Virus record (IMG/VR): IMGVR_UViG_2585427783_000005
Direction: 5' to 3' (one strand)
DNA from: a virus
Lineage: Duplodnaviria; Heunggongvirae; Uroviricota; Caudoviricetes
DNA: 32,447 nucleotides
Below are positions 1 through 25,670 of the stretch, one piece after another (the first letter of the stretch is position 1; every line of letters begins with the position of its first letter). The notes below the pieces were generated by a model. That model saw only the letters and a program-made list of their open reading frames with translations, did no database searches and was not told where the DNA came from. The translations under genes were made by a program, and so were the position numbers.

Positions 1-452
1 AACACCAGCAAACAGATAAAAAAGGGCCAGCCAATTGGCCAGCCCTTCTTAACAGGATGTCGCTTAAGCGAAATCTTAGTTAAGACGCTCCCAATAAAAC
101 CACATAAAAAACATATAATTATAATAAAAACAATTAGTTAATTTAATTTTTAATGCAGTGAATTGCAATATTCTGCAACCTCCGCCGCCACTTTGCCGCC
201 ACTTAAAGCTTTATACCACACAGACTTTAGTATACCCGAGTGAAACGCTAACACATGAGGTAGTTGGAAAATTTCCGTATATGTTGTAATATTGATACGC
301 ATTATATGATTTTTACCTGATATAATGTAATTATTAGCTTCAAAATTATTTTTGCACGAATCAGGTATTACCAAGTAGTTGTCAGTTTTTAAAAACCCAA
401 CATCCTAAAATTAGCATTGTTTTTTAACCACAAAACATCCACGGAGAAGAAC

Positions 453-1262
453 GTGTCAAAAAAGGATACAATCCAGATTATCGATATCAGGATGCAGAGA
501 CCAATCATAGCAAGAATAGAAGAAGAAAATTTAAATTTGACATTGCAAATGTCAGATAAAGCCACATTATCTGGTGCGACAGTTAGTTTTTTCACCCCAA
601 ATAACGTTTCTATATTCTTATCCTCAGCAAAAAAAGAGCTCTCAAAATCCAATTCTATATATAAAAGTCTTTTTGGAAAAATACACAAAACCAAACATAA
701 AAACTTTAAAATTTCCGACAAAGCCCTGCCGAGACTCTATAATTACTTTGAATCAATTCAGACGGCCATTATTTCTATGTATACTGCAATTGAGTCTTTT
801 GCAAATATATGCATACCACATGATTATGTTTATGAAAAAAACAATGCCAAGGGAATCAAAGAATCCTATAGCAAAGAGCTAATTGAGCGATATATACCAA
901 CAAGTGAAAAAATAGATAAAATCCTACCGTCTATTTTAAATTGTGATTCACCTAAAGGTTCAAAACTATGGCAAGATTTTAAAAGCCTTGAGTCACTTAG
1001 AAATGACATAATTCACCCCAAGACAACAAAGAAAAACACAGAAACAAAAGAAGACTCATCTTTTTTATGCATTTTACTATCAGATGACTTTATAAAAAAA
1101 GTTTCCTGTGGATTTGATTTGGTATCTTATTTTTGCAAACAAGACACTACTCATAGTCTTTTCCCAATGGGTTTCGGTGAAATTGAACTTAAACCTGTCC
1201 CAATTAAAGCCGGTGACTTTGAAAAAGTTGATGATCATGATGAAATAGAATTACCATCATAA
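453..1262 (+). CDS. AT-rich hypothetical protein with Rx4H (HEPN-like) motif; possible Abi-type cargo gene
   Basis: Long ORF (track 417..1262, TTG at 417); GTG at 453 has GGAG 9 nt upstream. Lys/Asn-rich, much lower GC than the prophage backbone. Motif LESLRNDIIHP. Start codon uncertain (ATG 492 also possible). Confidence 0.5.
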   Translation: MSKKDTIQIIDIRMQRPIIARIEEENLNLTLQMSDKATLSGATVSFFTPNNVSIFLSSAKKELSKSNSIYKSLFGKIHKTKHKNFKISDKALPRLYNYFESIQTAIISMYTAIESFANICIPHDYVYEKNNAKGIKESYSKELIERYIPTSEKIDKILPSILNCDSPKGSKLWQDFKSLESLRNDIIHPKTTKKNTETKEDSSFLCILLSDDFIKKVSCGFDLVSYFCKQDTTHSLFPMGFGEIELKPVPIKAGDFEKVDDHDEIELPS

Positions 1263-1378: not shown

Positions 1379-2419
1379 TTAATCTTTCCATTTAAAACCA
1401 TTACATAATGTTAAAGGATTAAATGTTACAGCCTCCTCAAGATGATCCGGGGAGAAATGTGCATACTTCATAGTTTCACGAATATTCGCATGACCGAGTA
1501 TACGTTGCAGCACAAGAATATTCCCGCCATTCATCATAAAATGAGCGCCGAAGGTATGACGCAGAACGTGTGTCTTTTGCCCTTCCGTCAGTTCGATATC
1601 CGTTAGTTTGAGCATCTTTTTAAACTCCTGATAGCAAGGCTTAAACATCTTTCCCTGCCTTTCAGATAATTCGTCATACAACCATTTTGGGATCGGAACG
1701 GTTCGATTCTTTTTCCCTTTCGTTTTGGTGAAGGTCAGTTTATGTGGCGAGAGCTGGGGACGTGTCAACCTCTCAGCCTCACCCCATCTAGCACCTGTTG
1801 CAAGACAAATCTTAACAATCATGGTGAGGTCTTCTTTTCCGTATTGCTCGCATGCCTGAAACAATTTCGGAATTTGAGACAAAGTGAGCCAAGACATTTC
1901 TTTCTCGGCTTCCTTGAAAACACGGACTCCATCAAGTGGATTTGGTAAGCTCCACTCCCCTAGCCTTTTGAGCTCATTAAATACAGCCTCAAGATATTGT
2001 TGCTCACGATTGACAGTTATCGGTTTAGCAATCCATTTTGCCGGGTCTTTATGATAGCCATTATCTATCTCCCCCCGAAGTCGGCGGTCACGGTAATGAG
2101 CCCAATCTTTAGCAGTAAGGCGGGATGCAATAGGGTCACCAAGTCCATTACACACGATTTGAAGTTTAGCTAACCGCGACTTACTGGCGACCAGTGCCTG
2201 TCCGTGTAAATTATGCCAAAGCTGGATAATCTCACTTAAGCGTCGGCGGTCTTCTTTCTTGCCGAGCCACGGCTTATCCTCACTCTCACTTTTCGTAAAT
2301 GCTTCGAATGCCTCGGCCTCACCTTTGGTATTGAATTGCCGACGTATACGCCGCCCTTCTCGACCATTTGGATAGAGCTCGCATAACCATTTGCCATTTT
2401 TTTGCTTACTTACAGTCAT
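1379..2419 (-). CDS. int: Tyrosine integrase, P2/186 type
   Basis: 346 aa; C-terminal catalytic region VLRHTFGAHFMMNGGNILVLQRILGHANIRETMKYAH (R...HxxR...Y); lies beside the repressor gene as in P2/186 prophages. Confidence 0.9.
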   Translation of the reverse strand: MTVSKQKNGKWLCELYPNGREGRRIRRQFNTKGEAEAFEAFTKSESEDKPWLGKKEDRRRLSEIIQLWHNLHGQALVASKSRLAKLQIVCNGLGDPIASRLTAKDWAHYRDRRLRGEIDNGYHKDPAKWIAKPITVNREQQYLEAVFNELKRLGEWSLPNPLDGVRVFKEAEKEMSWLTLSQIPKLFQACEQYGKEDLTMIVKICLATGARWGEAERLTRPQLSPHKLTFTKTKGKKNRTVPIPKWLYDELSERQGKMFKPCYQEFKKMLKLTDIELTEGQKTHVLRHTFGAHFMMNGGNILVLQRILGHANIRETMKYAHFSPDHLEEAVTFNPLTLCNGFKWKD

Positions 2420-2441
2420 AATGTCACCGAGGCAACTCTAA

Positions 2442-2780
2442 TTATTCCCAAAGTGCTGTTGCAGCATCCATTACAGGATCCAAAGGAATTTTTACGCCTG
2501 CATACTCCGGGCTATCTTTCCAAACAGTATCAATATTGCTCCCCTCAAGCTTTCCAGACTTTACTCCATCAATCGCAAAACCATTTAATGGGTATCGGTC
2601 ATCTGTTGCTTTGTCGTACACAAAGGCATATTTACCGTTGACACAAGACACCGTAGCTTTTTCAAAAGTTAACGGCCAATCCTCACCAAACTTAGCGCCA
2701 TCTAAATCCTGTGTTTTTTCAGCGGCTGAGGCTCCAAAAGAAAGGGTAAGAAGCAGAGCTAAAAAGAGTTTACATTTCAT
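2442..2780 (-). CDS. Small secreted/periplasmic protein of unknown function, inserted between cI and int
   Basis: ATG at 2778-2780 (revcomp) with AAGGGA RBS; N-terminus MKCKLFLALLLTLSFGASAAEKT is a typical Sec signal peptide; mature part ~90 aa. Track ORF 2442..2852 has a longer, unlikely N-terminus. Confidence 0.7.
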   Translation of the reverse strand: MKCKLFLALLLTLSFGASAAEKTQDLDGAKFGEDWPLTFEKATVSCVNGKYAFVYDKATDDRYPLNGFAIDGVKSGKLEGSNIDTVWKDSPEYAGVKIPLDPVMDAATALWE

Positions 2781-2788
2781 AATGTCCC

Positions 2789-3649
2789 TTACACGTGTTT
2801 TTCCAATGTGAAAACTACAGCCCCGGCAGGAGTAATGTCTGTAATGTTGCATTCAAACTCAGCAGACTTATTTGACAACCTGACTTTTCCACCGGGCAAG
2901 CGAATTACATCAAAAACATCAAGAGCGCCGTCGATATCAATTAACCAGCGACCATTACTTATATTCGAAGCAGAACAGTCGACAAGCCAAGAGGCAGCTA
3001 CACCGTCAACAAAAATCAATTCCCCTGAGTTAGAAGGAATCATTGAGGGGTCAGGATGCCACGTTCCTGCATCCTTAAGCTCACCAGATTCAAGACGAGA
3101 TTTTTTAATAGAAAAACCAGATGTGACATCTTCCCTGTTAGCTCGCATTTGCCCCTTGCCTGTTGCTAACCATTCCAGTGACGTATCGGTATCAAGAGCG
3201 CATGTAACAACAACATCACCAGGGAAAAAATCTCGCCTTACCCATGTGCTAATTGTGCCAGAGGAAATGCCGAGCAAATCACCGAGCTCCTTTTGCATGG
3301 TAAAGCCATACGCATCAAGAATCCTACGCAAAACGGTTTTACCACCATTCGTCATAATCTCGTCATAAAGCTCTTTGCCTTTTAACTTGCAACTGGCTCG
3401 CTCGTGATTTGCATTTGCAAGTTCTCCATTTACAAGCCAATTGATATCAGCTCCCGTGTCAAGACAACACCTAACTATGACATTGCCAGGTATTGCATCA
3501 CGCTGAACCCAGCCGCTAACGCTGTGTTTAGCGATACCTAGCAGGTCAGCCAAATCCTTTTGCATCTTGACCCCATAGGCTGACATTAAGCGTTCCAATA
3601 CGCCGTTCGTTGCACTAACACGCCACTGAACATCAAGCTCAGAACTCAT
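2789..3649 (-). CDS. cI: CI-type immunity repressor (186-like) with tandemly duplicated N-terminal HTH domain
   Basis: 286 aa. Two homologous modules (VLERLMSAYGVKMQKDLADLLGIAKHSVSGWVQRDAIPGNVIVRCCLDTGADINWLVNGE / VLRRILDAYGFTMQKELGDLLGISSGTISTWVRRDFFPGDVVVTCALDTDTSLEWLATGK), then a C-terminal domain resembling the 186 CI oligomerisation domain. Divergent from the early operon. Confidence 0.85.
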   Translation of the reverse strand: MSSELDVQWRVSATNGVLERLMSAYGVKMQKDLADLLGIAKHSVSGWVQRDAIPGNVIVRCCLDTGADINWLVNGELANANHERASCKLKGKELYDEIMTNGGKTVLRRILDAYGFTMQKELGDLLGISSGTISTWVRRDFFPGDVVVTCALDTDTSLEWLATGKGQMRANREDVTSGFSIKKSRLESGELKDAGTWHPDPSMIPSNSGELIFVDGVAASWLVDCSASNISNGRWLIDIDGALDVFDVIRLPGGKVRLSNKSAEFECNITDITPAGAVVFTLEKHV

Positions 3650-3678: not shown

Positions 3679-3707
3679 TTTACAGAAAACTTTTTACGAT
3701 CTATAGT
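3679..3707 (+). promoter_or_regulatory. Candidate sigma70 early (lytic, pR-like) promoter in the cI/apl switch region
   Basis: TTTACA (3679-3684), 17-nt spacer, TATAGT (3702-3707); ~60 nt upstream of the AGGAG RBS and ATG at 3771. Confidence 0.5.
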
Positions 3708-3770
3708 GGCATTCATCGACCAAGATGCACACCACTGCACTACATTTCAAACAACAGGAGATAATGCGAT

Positions 3771-4142
3771 ATGTCAGATGCAAAATCAATCTCGACGCAC
3801 GACTCGCAAAACTCACAAAATCAAACTGTGCTGCTAGATCCAACACAGTTTGATGCCATCGTTACCGCCATGCTGCCAGCTCTACAGACAATGATTCGCT
3901 CCGCTATGTCAGACACGATGACTGTGAAAGACTTCGCCGCTACTCGCGGTGTTAGCGAGCGTCTGGTCTGGCAATGGCTCGATGAGGGAGTCCTTCTCAA
4001 AGCTCCGACCAAAGACTTTTCCAACAAAGAAGAAGCTGCTAAACGAAGCCGAACCCTCGTAAACGTAAAAGCATGGCGCGATAAGCTGACTCAACAAGCG
4101 ATTGATTGTCGCTACATCGACCAGCGCACCGCTCTTAACTGA
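3771..4142 (+). CDS. Putative Cox/Apl-like DNA-binding regulator/excisionase (first gene of early operon)
   Basis: ATG at 3771 with AGGAG RBS; HTH-like segment MTVKDFAATRGVSERLVWQWLDEGVL; position equivalent to 186 apl / P2 cox. Longer than Apl/Cox (123 aa), so the call is positional. Confidence 0.45.
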   Translation: MSDAKSISTHDSQNSQNQTVLLDPTQFDAIVTAMLPALQTMIRSAMSDTMTVKDFAATRGVSERLVWQWLDEGVLLKAPTKDFSNKEEAAKRSRTLVNVKAWRDKLTQQAIDCRYIDQRTALN

Positions 4143-9764: not shown

Positions 9765-10769
9765 CTAATTTACATGTATGTAGAGTTCACCGTCGCCAGA
9801 CCAATCGGGACACTCTAAAACAAGCCCAAACTGCTTGAATATTTCATCAATGATTATTGTTATCTCCCGAAAATCACCAAAACCTGTAATGTGCTGGTCA
9901 TTAAACTTCCCATAAAGATTCTGAAAAGCAATGCCTAATTCTGATAATTGATATCTTATCTTTGAGTTGGATAGTGTAAGGGATAGCTTTGGATCGTATT
10001 CTTTAATATTGATGTTTAGAGAATGGACATAACCCATCGCATAAGCATAAGAGTTGATGATTAGCCTGATACGTTTTTTTACTTCAAGATACATGTCATT
10101 CAGAGAAATATTACCGTACTTATAACCCCAGATGAGTTTTTCAATCTCGTCAGATACTTCATTTACAACAGTGTCAAGATTCTCTAAAAATAAATCGACA
10201 GTTTCTTGAGGGGCAGACCCCGAAGACATGTAATTAGCGAGATATTCAGACCATGCACGCGTGGCTGAGATAAGAAGCGCGCTACCATACTCGTTGACTG
10301 TAAAGTTTTGGGCTAAGCATGTTAGTAAGTTTTTTTCATGTACGTGCACTAATTCATGGTGAATGCGATGGATGACTGCGAGGTATCCTTCTTCTTTCAG
10401 TTTTAAGAAGCTACCATCATTGAAAAGCTCAACAAAAAAATCAATCGATAGCACAAGGGTATATTCTTCATATAGCCCATCATTGCCAATTTTTGTTACT
10501 AACTGCCCGACGGCTGCGCCCTGTTTGCTATTGGTAAATGAACTAGGGGATTTGTGTTGGTAAGAGGATGTTACCTTTTGAAGAGCTTCACTGAAGTTAT
10601 AGGAAACAATCACGCATTTTAATTTGGAGATATCAAGATTGAGATTCTTTGTTAAAGCTCGGATAGCTTCTAGTGTGAAATTACCGATATTATTTGCTTC
10701 TTGCTCAGTAGCGAAACCTTCGAGGGTTATTTTAAAATCAGTTTCCAAAATATTAATCTCCGCGCCCAT
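9765..10769 (-). CDS. AT-rich hypothetical protein with HExxH motif (possible metal-dependent hydrolase); accessory gene between cos and Q
   Basis: 334 aa ORF, ATG at 10767-10769 (revcomp); IHRIHHELVHVHE motif; strongly AT-rich relative to flanking phage genes; no recognisable P2 homolog. Confidence 0.6.
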   Translation of the reverse strand: MGAEINILETDFKITLEGFATEQEANNIGNFTLEAIRALTKNLNLDISKLKCVIVSYNFSEALQKVTSSYQHKSPSSFTNSKQGAAVGQLVTKIGNDGLYEEYTLVLSIDFFVELFNDGSFLKLKEEGYLAVIHRIHHELVHVHEKNLLTCLAQNFTVNEYGSALLISATRAWSEYLANYMSSGSAPQETVDLFLENLDTVVNEVSDEIEKLIWGYKYGNISLNDMYLEVKKRIRLIINSYAYAMGYVHSLNINIKEYDPKLSLTLSNSKIRYQLSELGIAFQNLYGKFNDQHITGFGDFREITIIIDEIFKQFGLVLECPDWSGDGELYIHVN

Positions 10770-10846: not shown

Positions 10847-11893
10847 TTATTCTGGGTTGTCGAGGGTGTACTCTTTGAATCTGATGACCTCCATGCCGAG
10901 CCAGTCATTTACCTCCCTGAACCTGTCCTGTAGCGGCGACAGCTCGTTGCGCACAAATACCTTTGCCACCTTCTCAACATCACCGAGTGAACCGATATTC
11001 TCGGGCTTGCCGCCCATGAGCTGGAACGGTACGCGGTGCGCGTCCATCAGATCGGCGGCACTGGCCTTCTTGATGTTGAAAAAGTCATCCTTTGTGGCGA
11101 CCTCGCTCAGTGGCACGATTTTGATGCCGTCCGGTTTTCCGCCGGGAGCGTAGAAAAACAGGTTCTTAAAGTTGCCGAGCCCTTTTGAGTTGCGCATCGC
11201 CTCGCGCAGCGATTCGACGTCGGTCGCGCTCTGCGCCGGGTCAGTCACATACATGATGTAGCCTGCGTGCGCGCCGTTCTGATAATACTTGCGGCGGAAC
11301 AGCGTCGCGGATTCATTCAGCCAAGCGGAATTAAGCGCGCTGAGATATTCCGGCAGACCGTAAATCTCCTGATTAATGTCGGGCTCCAGCAGGTGAAACA
11401 CGGTATCAGGCGCGAACTCGTGCGGCTGGGTGAAGTTTTCCACAAACCAGAAAATCGAATCGTCGACTCCGCGTCGGGTGTATTTGGCTGGCGAGGCCAG
11501 CAGTTTGATTAACTGGCCGGTGACGCTGTGGCGCTGCTCAAGAAAGGCGTTACCGAACACCAGATAATCGAGCGCAAAGCGGCTGAAATCCTGACGGGAT
11601 AACAACGGGTGCGGAATGTAGGTGCTCGCGAGCACGTTACGCTTAACATAAATTGGCGAGCTGTGATGCACGGCAGAGCGCAGGCTCTTTGCCAGCCCTG
11701 AGAAGCTGACCGGCGGCTCGTACCATTTGCCGTTACTGATGCACTCGACGTAATCCAGAATGTCGCGCTTATCGAGTACCGGCACCGGCTCGCCGAAGGT
11801 GAACGCTGTCGTTTTTGGCGGTGCGCTGGCGGTCAGTTGTTGTGGTTTGCTGGCCTTTTGTGCGTTGGCTTTACGGGATTTTTGTTTACCCAT
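10847..11893 (-). CDS. Q: Portal protein
   Basis: 348 aa; size, position and orientation (adjacent to and downstream of terminase P) match P2 gpQ. Confidence 0.9.
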   Translation of the reverse strand: MGKQKSRKANAQKASKPQQLTASAPPKTTAFTFGEPVPVLDKRDILDYVECISNGKWYEPPVSFSGLAKSLRSAVHHSSPIYVKRNVLASTYIPHPLLSRQDFSRFALDYLVFGNAFLEQRHSVTGQLIKLLASPAKYTRRGVDDSIFWFVENFTQPHEFAPDTVFHLLEPDINQEIYGLPEYLSALNSAWLNESATLFRRKYYQNGAHAGYIMYVTDPAQSATDVESLREAMRNSKGLGNFKNLFFYAPGGKPDGIKIVPLSEVATKDDFFNIKKASAADLMDAHRVPFQLMGGKPENIGSLGDVEKVAKVFVRNELSPLQDRFREVNDWLGMEVIRFKEYTLDNPE

Positions 11894-19718: not shown

Positions 19719-20594
19719 CTAGCCTCGTAAATATCGTTTAGTAAATTTCGTGTTTGGTCTGGATGATAGGATTTGTCTTTCTATTTCACTATCACAGTCT
19801 ATATAGTCTAGTGTATTAGCTTCTATAAGTTTGTTCACGTCAATATTTTTTGCATCGATTATGTTGGCATTTCTAAGGTTTGCATTGGTGTATTCCACTT
19901 TATCCAAATCACACTCTCTGAGTACGCAACTTTTCATTTCCGCATTGGAAAAATCCCCACCATATAAATAGCAGCCTTCAAAAATAACACCGTTTAACTT
20001 TGAATCCTGAGCTTTAATATTTTTTATTTTACACTTTATAAATTTTACGTTTTTCATTTTGCTCTTGCTAATATTTAATGCCTGGATTGTACATCCAGTG
20101 AAAGAACAGTCTCTTATGTTAGATTTTTCCATATTTAACCCAGATAGTTCTGAGGTTTTAAAGTGTAAGTATTTAATGGTAAAAAGGTCACCCAACTCCA
20201 TTCTGGGTATGTCTATATTGAAGACACCTTTATTGTTGAGCTGTCTTATTATTTTTATTTTTTGTATTTTCAAATCAACATTAACGTGCTTAGCTAAGTT
20301 TCCCAAATCCTCAAGAAGTTCATTAATCGTTTCTTTGTTTTGTCTTCTGTATTCAAAGTAATAAAGGATGACACCTAATACAAAAAAATCCAAAATGGAT
20401 GAATTTGCATTTATTAGGAACCCAGACAGGAATGAATCATTGTAATTACCATAGTGTATAGAGGCAAGTGTTACGCCAAATGCATATAAAATAAAAATAA
20501 TAAACACGTGCTTCATTTTGCATAAGGATTGTATTATTGGTTTTATGGCATCAATTTTGTTCATTGCTGCAGCAGCGAAAGATTTAAAAGTCAT
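19719..20594 (-). CDS. Membrane-anchored pentapeptide-repeat protein (moron between S and V, antisense to late genes)
   Basis: 291 aa; two N-terminal hydrophobic helices (VFIIFILYAFGVTLASI, ILDFFVLGVILYYF); C-terminal five-residue periodicity (SNIRD CSFTG CTIQA LNISK ... ANLRN ANIID); strongly AT-rich. Start codon uncertain (no clear RBS). Confidence 0.7.
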   Translation of the reverse strand: MTFKSFAAAAMNKIDAIKPIIQSLCKMKHVFIIFILYAFGVTLASIHYGNYNDSFLSGFLINANSSILDFFVLGVILYYFEYRRQNKETINELLEDLGNLAKHVNVDLKIQKIKIIRQLNNKGVFNIDIPRMELGDLFTIKYLHFKTSELSGLNMEKSNIRDCSFTGCTIQALNISKSKMKNVKFIKCKIKNIKAQDSKLNGVIFEGCYLYGGDFSNAEMKSCVLRECDLDKVEYTNANLRNANIIDAKNIDVNKLIEANTLDYIDCDSEIERQILSSRPNTKFTKRYLRG

Positions 20595-22642: not shown

Positions 22643-23243
22643 CCGGCTATTACCCGTTGGCTCGTCGCCGCTGGAGGTTGCCGCCGCTGCCGCGCTCTCT
22701 GAGATTCAGCGTGTGCCGGTACCGCTGCGCACTCTGTGGAACTGGCGCACCTGCCCGGTAAAACTGCTGCCGTATCTGGCGTGGGCGCTGTCGGTCGACA
22801 GGTGGGATGAGAAATGGCCGGAGGCGACAAAGCGTAGCGTCTGCGCGTCCTCGTTTTTCGTCCATCAGCACAAAGGCACCATTAGCGCATTGCGTCGGGT
22901 GGTTGAGCCGCTCGGCTTTCTGATTGAAGTGCGCGAGTGGTGGCAGCTCAACGAGGAGCCAGGCACATTCCGCCTCGTTGTCGGCGTGCTCGATAGCGGC
23001 ATTACTGACGAAATGTATCAGGAGCTTGAGCGCCTGATTGAAGACGCCAAACCGGCAAGTCGCCACCTGACCGGGCTGGCTATCAGTCTGAGCTCGACCG
23101 GCGAACTGTATGTCGGCGCGGGATGCTATCACGGCGACGCGCTGACTGTTTACCCCTACACCCCCGAGGAGATTGTCGTCGGCGGTGAATATTACCCGGC
23201 CTCGGCCATCCATTTGATTGATAACCTGAGAGTGAACGCATGA
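22635..23243 (+). CDS. I: Baseplate/tail protein I
   Basis: 202 aa; overlaps the J stop and H start as in P2. Confidence 0.85.
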   Translation: MNDRLLPVGSSPLEVAAAAALSEIQRVPVPLRTLWNWRTCPVKLLPYLAWALSVDRWDEKWPEATKRSVCASSFFVHQHKGTISALRRVVEPLGFLIEVREWWQLNEEPGTFRLVVGVLDSGITDEMYQELERLIEDAKPASRHLTGLAISLSSTGELYVGAGCYHGDALTVYPYTPEEIVVGGEYYPASAIHLIDNLRVNA

Positions 23244-24157
23244 CCGCAAAATATTTTGCCATTCTGACCAATCAGGGCGCGGCGCGGCTGGCGAACGCGG
23301 CGGCACTCGGTACCAAACTCAACCTGACGCAGATGGCCGTCGGTGATGCGAATGGTACGTTGCCGACCCCTGACCCGGCGCAGACGAAGCTCATTAACCA
23401 GAAACGCATCGCGCCGCTGAACCTGCTGACCGTTGACCCGGCCAATACCAGTCAGATTATCGCGGAACAGATTATTCCCGAGAATGAAGGTGGTTTCTGG
23501 ATCCGCGAGATTGGTCTCTATGACGATGATGGTATTCTGATTGCCGTGGCGAACTGTCCGGAGACCTACAAGCCACAACTGCAGGAGGGAAGCGGTCGCA
23601 CGCAGACCATTCGCATGATTCTGATTGTGTCGAGCACATCGGCAATCACCCTGAAAATCGACCCGGCAGTCGTGCTGGCAACGCGCCAGTATGTCGACGA
23701 CAAGATTATCGAGGTGAAAGGATATGCTGATGACCTGATGAAAAAACATGTTGAGGCCGCCAATCCACACAAGCAGTACCCGTTAATCGCTAATGCTCTG
23801 AAAGAAATGGTTGACGCGGGACTGGCCGGCGACGTTCTTAAAAACCTTGGTTTAAGAGCAAGCGGGCAGTACACCGATAATTTGTTATTTACAGGTCCTG
23901 ATGGTCTTAAGATTCAGGTGTTTCGCCGGACGCTCGCAAATTTGACTACTGTCGGTGTAGTAAATTCTGTGCCAGTGACTTTCCCTGTCCCGTTCCCTGT
24001 TAATTGCTGGGGCGTTTTTTCTACCAAATTAACATGGGTTCAGATAACTAACTCATGCGAGTGGGTAAGCAATACAGGATTTACCGCTCAGGTCATGATG
24101 AATATTGCTGTAAATACAAACACCTCAGACGCTATGTTTTTAGCTATAGGATATTAA
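23240..24157 (+). CDS. H: Tail fibre protein (short form; conserved N-terminus plus invertible C-terminal domain)
   Basis: 305 aa; N-terminus (AVGDANGTLP..., IPENEGGFWIREIGLYDDDGILIAVANCPETYKP) resembles the P2 gpH N-terminus; C-terminal part lies inside the predicted invertible segment. Confidence 0.85.
   Translation: MTAKYFAILTNQGAARLANAAALGTKLNLTQMAVGDANGTLPTPDPAQTKLINQKRIAPLNLLTVDPANTSQIIAEQIIPENEGGFWIREIGLYDDDGILIAVANCPETYKPQLQEGSGRTQTIRMILIVSSTSAITLKIDPAVVLATRQYVDDKIIEVKGYADDLMKKHVEAANPHKQYPLIANALKEMVDAGLAGDVLKNLGLRASGQYTDNLLFTGPDGLKIQVFRRTLANLTTVGVVNSVPVTFPVPFPVNCWGVFSTKLTWVQITNSCEWVSNTGFTAQVMMNIAVNTNTSDAMFLAIGY
23835..23858. repeat. Left recombination (crossover) site of invertible tail-fibre segment (hix/gix-like)
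   Basis: TTCTTAAAAACCTTGGTTTAAGAG resembles hixL as recalled; inverted relative to the right site. Confidence 0.6.
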
Positions 24158-24158
24158 T

Positions 24159-24599
24159 ATGAATCGTTTTGTGTTCAGTCCATCTGAGTCCCGTTTTTAT
24201 GCCATCGAGTGGCAGGCTGATTATGTTGATAATAATTGTTGGCCACATGATGCCATTAACGTTAGTGACAGCATTTATTATGAGTTTTCCGGCACTCCCC
24301 CTACAGGTAAGCAACTTATAACTTTAAATAACATGCCAGCATGGGGTGATATTCCTCCACCTACACGAGAAGAATTAATTGTCGCTGCTGATGTGGAGAA
24401 GCAAAAAAGAATAGATTTAGCCAATGATTACATGAACGGTAAGCAATGGCCTGGTAAAGCAGCTATTGGTCGTCTGAAAGGTGAGGAACTGGCACAATAT
24501 AATTTGTGGCTGGATTATCTGGACGCACTGGAGCTGGTCGATACCGCCAGTGCGCCAGATATTGAATGGCCTACGCCTCCGGCAGTTCAGGCCAGATGA
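24159..24599 (+). CDS. G: Tail fibre assembly chaperone (expressed orientation)
   Basis: 146 aa; C-terminus ...SAPDIEWPTPP typical of the tail-fibre-assembly family. Confidence 0.85.
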   Translation: MNRFVFSPSESRFYAIEWQADYVDNNCWPHDAINVSDSIYYEFSGTPPTGKQLITLNNMPAWGDIPPPTREELIVAADVEKQKRIDLANDYMNGKQWPGKAAIGRLKGEELAQYNLWLDYLDALELVDTASAPDIEWPTPPAVQAR

Positions 24600-25173
24600 C
24601 ATCCGGCGCGGTGCTGGTATCTGTTGCCGTCACCGCGTCAATGTAATCCAGCACAGTGTTAAGGCTGGTTGTTTCTGCCTGCGTCAGTTTACGTCCGGCC
24701 TGCAATTTCAGCTGAATCAGACTGATTGAAGCCATTGCAGTATCAATCAGTGACTGGCGCTGTGCTTCTGCTGCATCTACTGCGGCGCTATGCTGTGCTT
24801 CGGTATCCGTCACCCATTTCTCACCATCCCATTTATCGTATGGCGTTAACGGGGCGATAGTGGTTGTATTATCAGGGTAATCACCCGGAGCTGTGATTTC
24901 TTTTGATTCTCCTGTTTCGGTGCTAAAGACGATTTCACCGCGATGGTCTGGCACATATTCCCATGAGTTAAAATCTACAGATCGGCAGATTGCATAACCA
25001 GCTTTGTATGTGCCAGGGGCATCTAAACAGGAATATGCAGGGATACCGACACCAACGGCAAGATATTCAGTTGATGTGGAAATATATTCCCGTGTTTCGC
25101 CATCATAGTTATAGACGGTAATATCCCCCGCCTTTGTAGCAATAAACTCGCTATTTAATACAGCGTTATCCAT
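24571..25173 (-). CDS. Alternative tail fibre assembly chaperone (inverted orientation)
   Basis: 200 aa on minus strand; C-terminus ...TAPDVIWPELPEA, paralogous to G; 3' ends of the two chaperone genes overlap convergently. Confidence 0.8.
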   Translation of the reverse strand: MDNAVLNSEFIATKAGDITVYNYDGETREYISTSTEYLAVGVGIPAYSCLDAPGTYKAGYAICRSVDFNSWEYVPDHRGEIVFSTETGESKEITAPGDYPDNTTTIAPLTPYDKWDGEKWVTDTEAQHSAAVDAAEAQRQSLIDTAMASISLIQLKLQAGRKLTQAETTSLNTVLDYIDAVTATDTSTAPDVIWPELPEA

Positions 25174-25670
25174 TATGCAGCCCTCACGATATAGTTAAAT
25201 GCAATATTCCGTGGACGGGTTTCATTTATCCCATATGCTGTTGTTCTCTGATTCCCGACAAAATATCCATTTGGATTAGAAGATACAGAATAATCATCAA
25301 AATCAAGTGGGCTATCAGCACCCGGCGTCAGGCTTGCAATATATCCTCTTCCCATAACTTCTGATGCTGGTATTTCTTTTGTACGATAATCACTAACTCT
25401 GAAGAGCTGCCCTTGGTGGGTGTGTGATTCCACTCCTCCATTCTGAAGACTTAGCAAGGCACGTACAGCATCAATACCACGCCCGTCATCCCAGCCACGA
25501 ATAAACTCACCACGTAAATCAGGCAATTTATTTGTCGGATAAGCCTTTGCCAGTTCCGGATATTCTTCAGCAGAAAAAGCGGCACCGTTGCATTTCAGCC
25601 AGCCTGTTGGCGGAGTGGCTGAAGGCCACGGAACAGGCACCCCAACCGGTAATGCAGAGCCTTCTCCCAA
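25173..25670 (-). CDS. Alternative tail-fibre C-terminal (receptor-binding) segment; promoterless, used only after inversion
   Basis: Minus-strand ORF without ATG start that begins at the right crossover site; LPDLRGEFIRGW and NETRPRNIAFNYIV tail-collar-like motifs. Confidence 0.7.
   Translation of the reverse strand: MGEGSALPVGVPVPWPSATPPTGWLKCNGAAFSAEEYPELAKAYPTNKLPDLRGEFIRGWDDGRGIDAVRALLSLQNGGVESHTHQGQLFRVSDYRTKEIPASEVMGRGYIASLTPGADSPLDFDDYSVSSNPNGYFVGNQRTTAYGINETRPRNIAFNYIVRAA

What the first reader, a model, noticed from the sequence alone, without database searches (positions are those of the whole stretch)
2442..2780. Secreted small protein embedded in the lysogenic operon between cI and int
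In P2 and 186 the repressor and integrase genes are adjacent on one leftward transcript. Here a 112-aa protein with a clear Sec signal peptide and a good RBS sits between them in the same orientation. It would therefore be made in lysogens and exported to the periplasm, the expected profile of a lysogenic-conversion or exclusion factor.
Basis: partly seen in the sequence, partly recalled or inferred. Interest (0 to 1): 0.55.

Follow-up and report, generated by a model that had tools for sequence, protein, structure and literature searches.

The report
Known YebY-like periplasmic prophage gene
The small secreted protein between the repressor and integrase genes is real. It is an already catalogued YebY/DUF2511-family gene (gp28 of Salmonella phage PSP3), its function in phages is untested, and the copy in this window has lost the family's conserved disulfide cysteine.

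Summary
Window 2442..2780 (-) encodes a 112-aa protein with a Sec-type signal peptide. A conserved Shine-Dalgarno overlaps the cI stop codon, and the gene sits 8 nt after cI and 22 nt before int.

It is not new. It matches Pfam DUF2511 (YebY family) and PHROG 2950 over its full length. It is orf28/gp28 of phage PSP3, and RefSeq annotates it as 'DUF2511 domain-containing protein'. A 2021 paper on E. coli YebY already noted family members lying between a CI repressor and a recombinase.

This window's lineage is the only full-length one with Trp in place of the C-terminal disulfide cysteine. In 7 of 19 sister prophages the gene also carries a 10-bp frameshift.

Expression in lysogens and any exclusion or conversion role remain inferences. 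My best guess is a periplasmic binding protein that protects the lysogen (about 0.35–0.4). The main rival is a YebY-like damper of copper import (about 0.25). Interest is low to moderate.

The parts
2442..2780 (-). DUF2511/YebY-family gene (PSP3 gp28 type), 112 codons plus TAA
   Evidence: ORF; Pfam PF10709 E 4.5e-16; PHROG 2950 full length; identical to RefSeq WP_001394631.1 'DUF2511 domain-containing protein'; dN/dS 0.12
2724..2780 (-). Codons 1-19: Sec-type signal peptide (MKCK / LFLALLLTLSFG / ASA|A). The predicted mature protein is 93 aa, 10.2 kDa, pI 4.4
   Evidence: Sequence features and computed properties; A17/A19/A20 conserved; low pLDDT for residues 1-20; higher dN/dS (0.31) than the mature part (0.09); E. 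coli YebY shown to be periplasmic (PMC8689200)
2448..2450 (-). Codon 111, TGG (Trp), at the position of the conserved C-terminal disulfide cysteine (YebY Cys113)
   Evidence: Alignments. 116 of 124 family representatives have Cys here. The only full-length exceptions are this allele and its close variant P0001. PSP3, Midge and 613R3 have TGC/TGT Cys
2643..2645 (-). Codon 46, Cys, the disulfide partner (YebY Cys48). It is unpaired in the mature protein of this allele
   Evidence: Alignment; disulfide C48-C113 in YebY (PMC8689200)
2587..2596 (-). 10 bp that are deleted in otherwise identical sister prophages, giving a frameshifted pseudogene
   Evidence: L005 versus the window: 0 mismatches over about 3 kb apart from this gap; RefSeq flags the gene as 'frameshifted'; 7 complete E. 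coli genomes fall in this identity band
2785..2791 (-). Shine-Dalgarno TAAGGGA, whose TAA is the cI stop codon
   Evidence: Sequence; conserved as TAAGGGA or TAAGGAG in related loci
2789..3649 (-). cI repressor, 286 aa, with two tandem PF07022 HTH domains plus Phage_CI_C
   Evidence: Pfam; 97.9% identical to PSP3 CI
1379..2419 (-). P2-type tyrosine integrase, 346 aa, last gene of the unit. It is preceded by the conserved motif GCCTCGGTG
   Evidence: Pfam Int_N and Phage_integrase; junction conservation
3679..3707 (+). pR-like promoter (TTTACA-17-TATAGT) facing away from cI
   Evidence: Consensus scan, 10 of 12 matches; a consensus match only
3761..3789 (-). Weak candidate for the pL-type lysogenic promoter (TTGATT-17-CATTAT, 8 of 12), face to face with pR as in phage 186
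   Evidence: My own relaxed scan; position analogous to annotated 186 pL; not verified

Best explanation
Shown: this is the PSP3 gp28-type member of the DUF2511/YebY family. It is a roughly 10-kDa soluble protein with a cleavable Sec signal peptide. It is a fixed, purifying-selected gene of the lysogeny unit cI - DUF2511 - int in PSP3-like (Eganvirus-type, tandem-HTH CI) prophages of Escherichia, Salmonella, Klebsiella, Enterobacter and Pantoea.

Inferred: it is transcribed with cI and int from the lysogenic (pL-type) promoter and, during establishment, the CII-activated promoter. It is translated from its own SD, which overlaps the cI stop, and is exported to the periplasm of lysogens.

Most likely mechanism (inferred, about 0.35-0.4): it acts as a small periplasmic binding or blocking protein that protects the lysogen at the outer face of the inner membrane. 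This would be an immunity- or exclusion-type function against something entering through the envelope, such as superinfecting phage DNA or an envelope-targeting agent. Both characterised relatives work by binding or modulating a target at that location: YebY damps the importer YebZ, and MlbQ gives immunity to a lipid-II-binding lantibiotic.

The phage clade has its own conserved signature, distinct from YebY, so its target is probably different.

For this window specifically, the allele carries Trp instead of the C-terminal disulfide cysteine and so is probably destabilised or weakened. Seven of 19 sister prophages carry a frameshift, so the gene is dispensable for prophage maintenance.
For: Identity:
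- Pfam PF10709 at 59.5 bits; PHROG 2950; PDB YebY 7N0J at E 3e-6.

Fixed position:
- PSP3, SEN1, Midge, 613R3, SW9, SI22 and RCIP0057.
- 45 IMG/VR loci and 3 GTDB loci.
- Klebsiella and Pantoea prophages whose protein is only 46-54% identical.

Selection: dN/dS is 0.12 overall and 0.09 for the mature part, against 0.13 for cI and 0.03 for int.

Operon:
- Gaps of 8 nt and 22 nt, with a conserved SD.
- No internal promoter-like or terminator-like site.
- GC 41.9%, like cI and int.
- The 186 operon serves as the model, and a 186-like prophage transcribes repressor and integrase in all conditions.

Divergence from YebY: 16 positions are conserved in both clades with different residues, and 18 are conserved only in YebY.

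The operon serves as a platform for lysogen-expressed cargo. Relatives carry an extra secreted protein or a bPH+SHOCT protein in the same unit.

W111 and the frameshift. Cys48 or Cys113 substitutions abolished YebY expression (PMC8689200).
Against: There is no direct evidence of transcription, export or any phenotype. There is no PADLOC hit and no fold or sequence link to any known exclusion protein.

The gene is an invariant, slowly evolving occupant of its slot, unlike typical variable defence cargo.

The W111 allele occurs on at least 1000 public contigs, so it may be tolerated and functional. AF2 cannot judge that.

The signal peptide was judged by rules, not by SignalP.
Confidence: 0.4

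Rival explanations
1. YebY mimic. The prophage supplies an extra periplasmic YebY-like protein, made constitutively in lysogens, that damps copper import through the host CopD-type importer YebZ (with YobA). That would change copper-dependent mar activation or copper stress in the lysogen. This is lysogenic conversion of host physiology rather than phage exclusion.
For: It belongs to the same Pfam family and has the same fold. Size, signal peptide and (in all other alleles) the disulfide match. 19 conserved positions are shared, including W35, YPL, GK, P91 and P102. Co-expression of YebY lowers YebZ-dependent copper accumulation (PMC11923076). The hosts are enterobacteria, where AZY operons are common.
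Against: Identity to YebY is only about 30%. 16 positions are conserved in both clades with different residues, several of them charge changes, and 18 are conserved only in YebY. The host already has yebY. The YebY authors class this context as unrelated to copper. The mature protein has no His and one Met, and this allele lacks the Cys pair. Very divergent alleles (46-100% identity) occur within E. coli alone, which is unexpected for a single conserved host target.
Confidence: 0.25
2. In this particular window the gene is a decaying remnant. The Cys111Trp change already inactivated or destabilised the protein, so the copy does nothing whatever the family's function. This is compatible with either functional reading for the family.
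For: Trp occurs at the disulfide position only in this lineage. Cys-to-Ala or Cys-to-Ser substitution at either cysteine abolished YebY expression. A 10-bp frameshift is present in 7 of 19 otherwise identical prophages.
Against: The intact W111 allele is on at least 1000 contigs. Only one other mature-region substitution separates it from the 613R3 allele, so there is no general excess of damage. Reduced YebY keeps its secondary structure and loses only about 5 degrees of Tm. A bulky Trp might pack in place of the disulfide.
Confidence: 0.4
3. The ORF matters mainly in cis, as a translated spacer that sets how much integrase is made from the repressor transcript. In phage 186 cI and int overlap and are coupled; here int, with a weak SD, would be coupled to gp28 translation. 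The protein product would be secondary.
For: There is a tight 22-nt gap and a conserved GCCTCGGTG motif before int. In 186, cI and int overlap by 1 nt.
Against: Purifying selection on the mature amino-acid sequence (dN/dS 0.09), together with the conserved signal peptide, disulfide and fold, shows the protein itself is selected. Frameshifted prophages persist.
Confidence: 0.05
4. Chance ORF or mis-called start. The true product would be the 136-aa ORF starting at 2852, or nothing at all.
For: An in-frame ATG exists at 2852.
Against: The extension would overlap cI by 64 nt. The start at 2780 and its SD are conserved in all loci. Pfam and PHROG cover the full 112-aa protein. dN/dS is 0.12.
Confidence: 0.01

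Closest known systems
gp28 (orf28, PSP3p30, NP_958085) of Salmonella phage PSP3, and its orthologues in phages SEN1, Midge, vB_EcoM-613R3, SW9, SI22 and RCIP0057
   Same: It is the same gene in the same place (cI - gp28 - int). Identity is 92-94% to the PSP3 and 613R3 proteins. The length is the same (112 aa), as are the signal peptide and SD.
   Different: The window allele has Trp111 where all of these have Cys, and Cys3 in the signal peptide n-region where they have Arg or His. None of these orthologues has been studied experimentally.
E. coli YebY (PDB 7N0J), the third gene of the yobA-yebZ-yebY copper-uptake operon
   Different: Identity is about 30%. The genomic context is a phage lysogeny operon, not copC/copD. 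16 clade-specific conserved substitutions separate the clades. The window allele lacks the Cys48-Cys113-type disulfide.
MlbQ (PDB 2MVO/6QFP), the lantibiotic NAI-107 self-resistance lipoprotein of Microbispora
   Different: MlbQ is a lipoprotein with a long linker and sits beside ABC transporter genes in an actinomycete. The window protein has no lipobox. Identity is 22-24%.
Envelope-located superinfection-exclusion proteins made by prophages (P1 Sim, phi80/N15 Cor, T5 Llp, TP-J34 Ltp, P22 SieA, HK97 gp15), listed from my own knowledge. Only P22 SieA (PMC10883804) and the Ltp family (PMC3952083) appeared in a search here
   Same: These are small proteins expressed from the prophage and located outside the cytoplasm. 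Some, like this gene, are a constant part of the phage's lysogeny region.
   Different: There is no sequence or fold similarity, and no exclusion phenotype has been tested.

Membership tests
Pfam DUF2511 / YebY family (PF10709) | Match to the family HMM above the curated gathering score | tested here: met
   59.5 bits against a cut-off of 21, E 4.5e-16, profile positions 5-86 of 87
Pfam DUF2511 / YebY family (PF10709) | YebY/MlbQ fold (four-stranded antiparallel sheet with flanking helices) | tested here: met
Pfam DUF2511 / YebY family (PF10709) | N-terminal signal peptide / extracytoplasmic location | tested here: met
   n/h/c regions with an AXA|A site and no lipobox; conserved A17/A19/A20. 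This is a rule-based reading only. Export itself is not testable here.
Pfam DUF2511 / YebY family (PF10709) | Two conserved cysteines forming the stabilising disulfide (YebY C48-C113) | tested here: not met
   Cys46 is present but position 111 is Trp (TGG) in the window. 116 of 124 representatives have Cys, and all other phage alleles do. The window copy is therefore an atypical, possibly impaired, member.
YebY sensu stricto (AZY copper-uptake operon protein) | Encoded next to copD/yebZ and copC/yobA | tested here: not met
   Flanked by cI and int in all 57 loci
YebY sensu stricto (AZY copper-uptake operon protein) | Modulates YebZ-dependent copper import | not testable with these tools
   Needs ICP-MS or reporter assays. 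Sequence signature differs at 16 positions conserved in both clades.
PHROG 2950 (phage protein family of unknown function) | Full-length match to the family profile | tested here: met
   E 1.3e-51, residues 1-112 on profile positions 1-112 of 112
Prophage superinfection-exclusion / anti-phage defence proteins | Similarity to a known defence or exclusion protein | tested here: not met
   No PADLOC family; no BFVD match with E below 0.05; no PDB fold match beyond YebY and MlbQ
Prophage superinfection-exclusion / anti-phage defence proteins | Expressed from the prophage in lysogens | tested here: inconclusive
   Operon architecture supports it, but there are no transcript data for this prophage
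Prophage superinfection-exclusion / anti-phage defence proteins | Reduces infection by other phages | not testable with these tools
   Needs plating and DNA-entry assays
Moron (independent accessory transcription unit in a phage genome) | Own promoter and terminator, atypical composition, variable presence | tested here: not met
   No promoter-like or terminator-like site within 2380-2860. GC is 41.9% against 45.2% for cI and 44.7% for int, whereas the real morons in the window are 32-38%. The gene is present in every PSP3-type module examined.

The most novel reading that the evidence does not exclude
PSP3-type temperate phages carry, as a constant part of their repressor-integrase operon, a YebY-fold periplasmic protein that would be a new class of lysogen-protecting factor. 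It would either block entry of superinfecting phage DNA or envelope-acting toxins, or reprogramme host copper import and thereby mar-dependent antibiotic tolerance. In either case it would give the DUF2511 fold its first phage-biology function. The natural Cys111Trp and frameshift alleles would serve as ready-made loss-of-function controls.
Probability: 0.3. Interest if true: 0.55.

Novelty: already known. Interest (0 to 1): 0.27.

Why it matters
The finding re-identifies a catalogued gene of unknown function, so the window adds little beyond what databases and one paper already state.

Two points give it some value. First, DUF2511 proteins are a conserved, purifying-selected, lysogen-expressed periplasmic component of a whole group of P2/186-like phages in E. 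coli, Salmonella, Klebsiella and Enterobacter, and nobody has tested what they do. A simple plasmid-expression screen could assign a function to a widespread DUF. Second, the family's only functional links are copper import (tied to antibiotic resistance) and lantibiotic immunity. A prophage-borne copy could therefore matter for host fitness in clinical enterobacteria.

The loss of the disulfide cysteine in a very common E. coli allele is a small curiosity. It could inform how essential that disulfide really is.

Tried and rejected
- NCBIfam gave no family for the protein. PADLOC gave none.
- Rfam found no RNA family anywhere in the window. ARAGORN found no tRNA.
- The GTDB genome scan returned only 3 loci because the peptide patterns were narrow.
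- Literature searches for DUF2511, YebY plus prophage, PSP3, and accession numbers found no functional study of the phage gene. The two proteomics papers that mention DUF2511 concern the chromosomal YebY or an unidentified entry.
- The copper paper models only the YebZ-YobA pair and gives no YebY interface, so interface conservation could not be checked.
- Rejected readings:
  - The 136-aa ORF from ATG 2852: it overlaps cI, and the start at 2780 is the conserved one.
  - The antisense ORFs 2402..2641(+) and 2536..2811(+): they lie opposite a purifying-selected gene.
  - A lipoprotein: there is no lipobox cysteine.
  - A Tat substrate: there is no twin arginine.
  - An independent moron: it has no promoter or terminator of its own, its composition matches its neighbours, and it is invariably present.
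- Linkage of the DUF2511 allele to cI immunity type was examined and not found. For example, L055 has cI at 85% identity but DUF2511 at 49%, and the window versus 613R3 shows three different divergence blocks.

Full report
**1. The observation**

The minus-strand ORF at 2442..2780 exists exactly as described, with ATG at 2780 and TAA at 2442-2444, and encodes 112 aa. It lies between a 286-aa CI repressor (2789..3649) and a P2-type tyrosine integrase (1379..2419), all on the minus strand. The cI stop codon is 8 nt upstream of the ATG and forms part of the Shine-Dalgarno TAAGGGA. The int ATG follows 22 nt after the stop.

The N-terminus has the three regions of a Sec signal peptide:
- n-region MKCK;
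- a 12-residue hydrophobic core with mean Kyte-Doolittle 2.36;
- A-S-A|A as the cleavage region.

There is no lipobox and no twin arginine. The predicted mature protein is 93 aa, 10.2 kDa, with pI 4.4. I could not run SignalP, so this reading rests on rules. It also rests on family-wide conservation of A17, A19 and A20 and on the low model confidence of residues 1-20. In addition, the homologue YebY has been shown experimentally to be periplasmic (PMC8689200).

**2. What it is**

The window is an E. coli chromosome carrying a PSP3-like (genus Eganvirus) prophage inserted just downstream of yfiB. RefSeq already annotates this exact gene as WP_001394631.1, 'DUF2511 domain-containing protein'. 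It is orf28/gp28 of Salmonella phage PSP3. The same gene lies between cI and int in phages SEN1, Midge ('putative periplasmic protein'), vB_EcoM-613R3, SW9, SI22 and Klebsiella phage RCIP0057. [quoted passage not shown] The feature is therefore already known as a gene and as an arrangement. Its function in phages has not been studied.

**3. How fixed the arrangement is**

I examined 57 loci in total:
- 45 IMG/VR viral contigs and 3 GTDB genomes;
- the deposited phages and E. coli chromosomes;
- a Klebsiella and a Pantoea prophage whose protein is only 46-54% identical.

Every one has a tandem-HTH cI, then DUF2511, then int, on one strand. The only departures are additions. Some loci have an extra 134-aa secreted protein between cI and DUF2511 (L034, L054). 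Others have a bPH_3+SHOCT protein between DUF2511 and int (L047-L050). A different tandem-HTH CI phage, Klebsiella 4LV2017, has an unrelated 349-aa unknown protein after cI. Phage 186 itself has cI and int overlapping by one base in the pL operon cI-int-orf69.

The SD overlapping the cI stop is conserved as TAAGGGA or TAAGGAG in nearly all the loci, as is a GCCTCGGTG motif before int. No sigma-70-like promoter or intrinsic-terminator-like site lies on the minus strand between 2380 and 2860. GC content (41.9%) matches cI (45.2%) and int (44.7%) rather than the 32-38% of the real morons in the window. The gene is thus an integral part of this lysogeny unit, not an independent moron.

**4. Selection and mosaicism**

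I computed Nei-Gojobori dN/dS with my own script on 38 distinct alleles. DUF2511 gives 0.12 overall, 0.09 for the mature part and 0.31 for the signal peptide. cI gives 0.13 and int gives 0.03. The protein itself is therefore under purifying selection.

The three genes reassort. Against phage 613R3 the window's cI is about 0-1% diverged at the DNA level, the DUF2511 gene 5-8% and int 15-20%. DUF2511 allele type does not track cI type.

**5.

YebY's two 'strictly conserved' cysteines form a stabilising C48-C113 disulfide. Replacing either one with Ala or Ser abolished expression (PMC8689200). In the window protein the first cysteine is present (Cys46), but the second position is Trp (codon 111, TGG, at 2448-2450).

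Among 124 family representatives, 116 have Cys there. Apart from this allele and its near-identical variant P0001, every exception is truncated or frameshifted. All 33 other distinct phage alleles, including PSP3, Midge and 613R3, have Cys.

Within the window's own prophage lineage, 19 complete E. coli genomes carry the 4.2-kb stretch. Seven of them have a 10-bp deletion at 2587-2596 in an otherwise identical sequence, which RefSeq flags as 'frameshifted'. The intact W111 allele is nevertheless very common, on at least 1000 public contigs.

I read this as follows. The family is functional. This lineage's copy is at least atypical and probably weakened. The gene is dispensable for keeping the prophage.

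**6. Mechanism**

These points are shown: family, fold, export signals, operon position and purifying selection. These are inferred: transcription with cI and int in lysogens, by analogy with 186 and with a 186-like Salmonella prophage whose repressor and integrase are transcribed in all conditions, and export to the periplasm.

For function there are two anchors. YebY lowers YebZ-dependent copper accumulation (PMC11923076). MlbQ is proposed to bind a lantibiotic. Both act on something at the outer face of the cytoplasmic membrane.

The phage clade shares 19 conserved positions with YebY, mostly the fold-defining ones. It differs at 16 positions that are conserved in both clades, for example F39 against R and V47 against R. 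It also lacks 18 positions conserved only in YebY. Alleles as far apart as 46% and 100% identity occur within E. coli alone.

I therefore favour a distinct target and a lysogen-protecting 'immunity/exclusion' role at about 0.35-0.4. A YebY-like damping of copper import comes second at about 0.25. None of this is tested. There is no similarity to any known exclusion or defence protein.

**7. Verdict**

The gene is already catalogued, so the novelty class is 'already known'. Interest is low to moderate. The constant presence of a YebY-fold periplasmic protein in a repressor-integrase operon is an easily testable open question. The natural Cys-to-Trp and frameshift alleles provide built-in controls.

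Noticed in passing
window 417..1262 (+) (RefSeq start at about 453; WP_001394629.1): A low-GC (32%) gene for a 270-281-aa protein sits between the yfiB/attL side and int. Sister prophages at the same site (E. coli 222, phage 613R3) lack it. It matches PHROG 17113 over its full length and gives a weak PADLOC RTasHEPN hit (E 1e-4). It contains an R-N-D-I-I-H (Rx4H) motif. It is a candidate HEPN-type defence moron.
   Followed up: partly
window 19719..20594 (-): A 291-aa pentapeptide-repeat protein (PF13599, E 4e-19) with GC 31.6% lies on the opposite strand in the middle of the late (tail/lysis) genes. It looks like an accessory insertion.
   Followed up: partly
window 9765..10769 (-): A 334-aa ORF with no Pfam or PADLOC match and GC 37.6% lies next to the portal gene (10847..11893). 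This is the position where P2-like phages carry old/tin-type cargo.
   Followed up: partly
window 24571..25670 (-), next to 23240..24599 (+): A tail-fibre assembly gene (Caudo_TAP) and a tail-Collar-domain ORF lie in inverted orientation directly after the forward tail-fibre and assembly genes. This could be an alternative fibre cassette, either invertible or a remnant. I did not look for an invertase.
   Followed up: no
window 2789..3649 (-): The CI repressor has two tandem PF07022 helix-turn-helix domains plus the CI C-terminal domain (286 aa). Phage 186 CI has one HTH domain (192 aa). All DUF2511-carrying modules have this tandem form.
   Followed up: partly
L054 2570..2974; L047 3355..3861; L058 3764..4813: Related prophages carry further cargo inside the cI-int unit. 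One is a second secreted 134-aa protein with no Pfam match. Another is a bacterial-PH plus SHOCT protein. In Klebsiella phage 4LV2017 a 349-aa unknown protein follows a tandem-HTH cI.
   Followed up: partly
window 1379..3649 compared with L003 (phage vB_EcoM-613R3): There are sharp mosaic boundaries. cI is about 0-1% diverged, the DUF2511 gene 5-8% and int 15-20%, with breakpoints near 2880 and 2300. int differs mostly at synonymous sites (dS above 1.2, dN/dS 0.03).
   Followed up: partly
window 3771..4142 (+): The 123-aa protein in the Cox/Apl position has no Pfam family and only a weak Cox-like PHROG hit. An earlier study called the PSP3 counterpart a singleton (PMC3448106).
   Followed up: no
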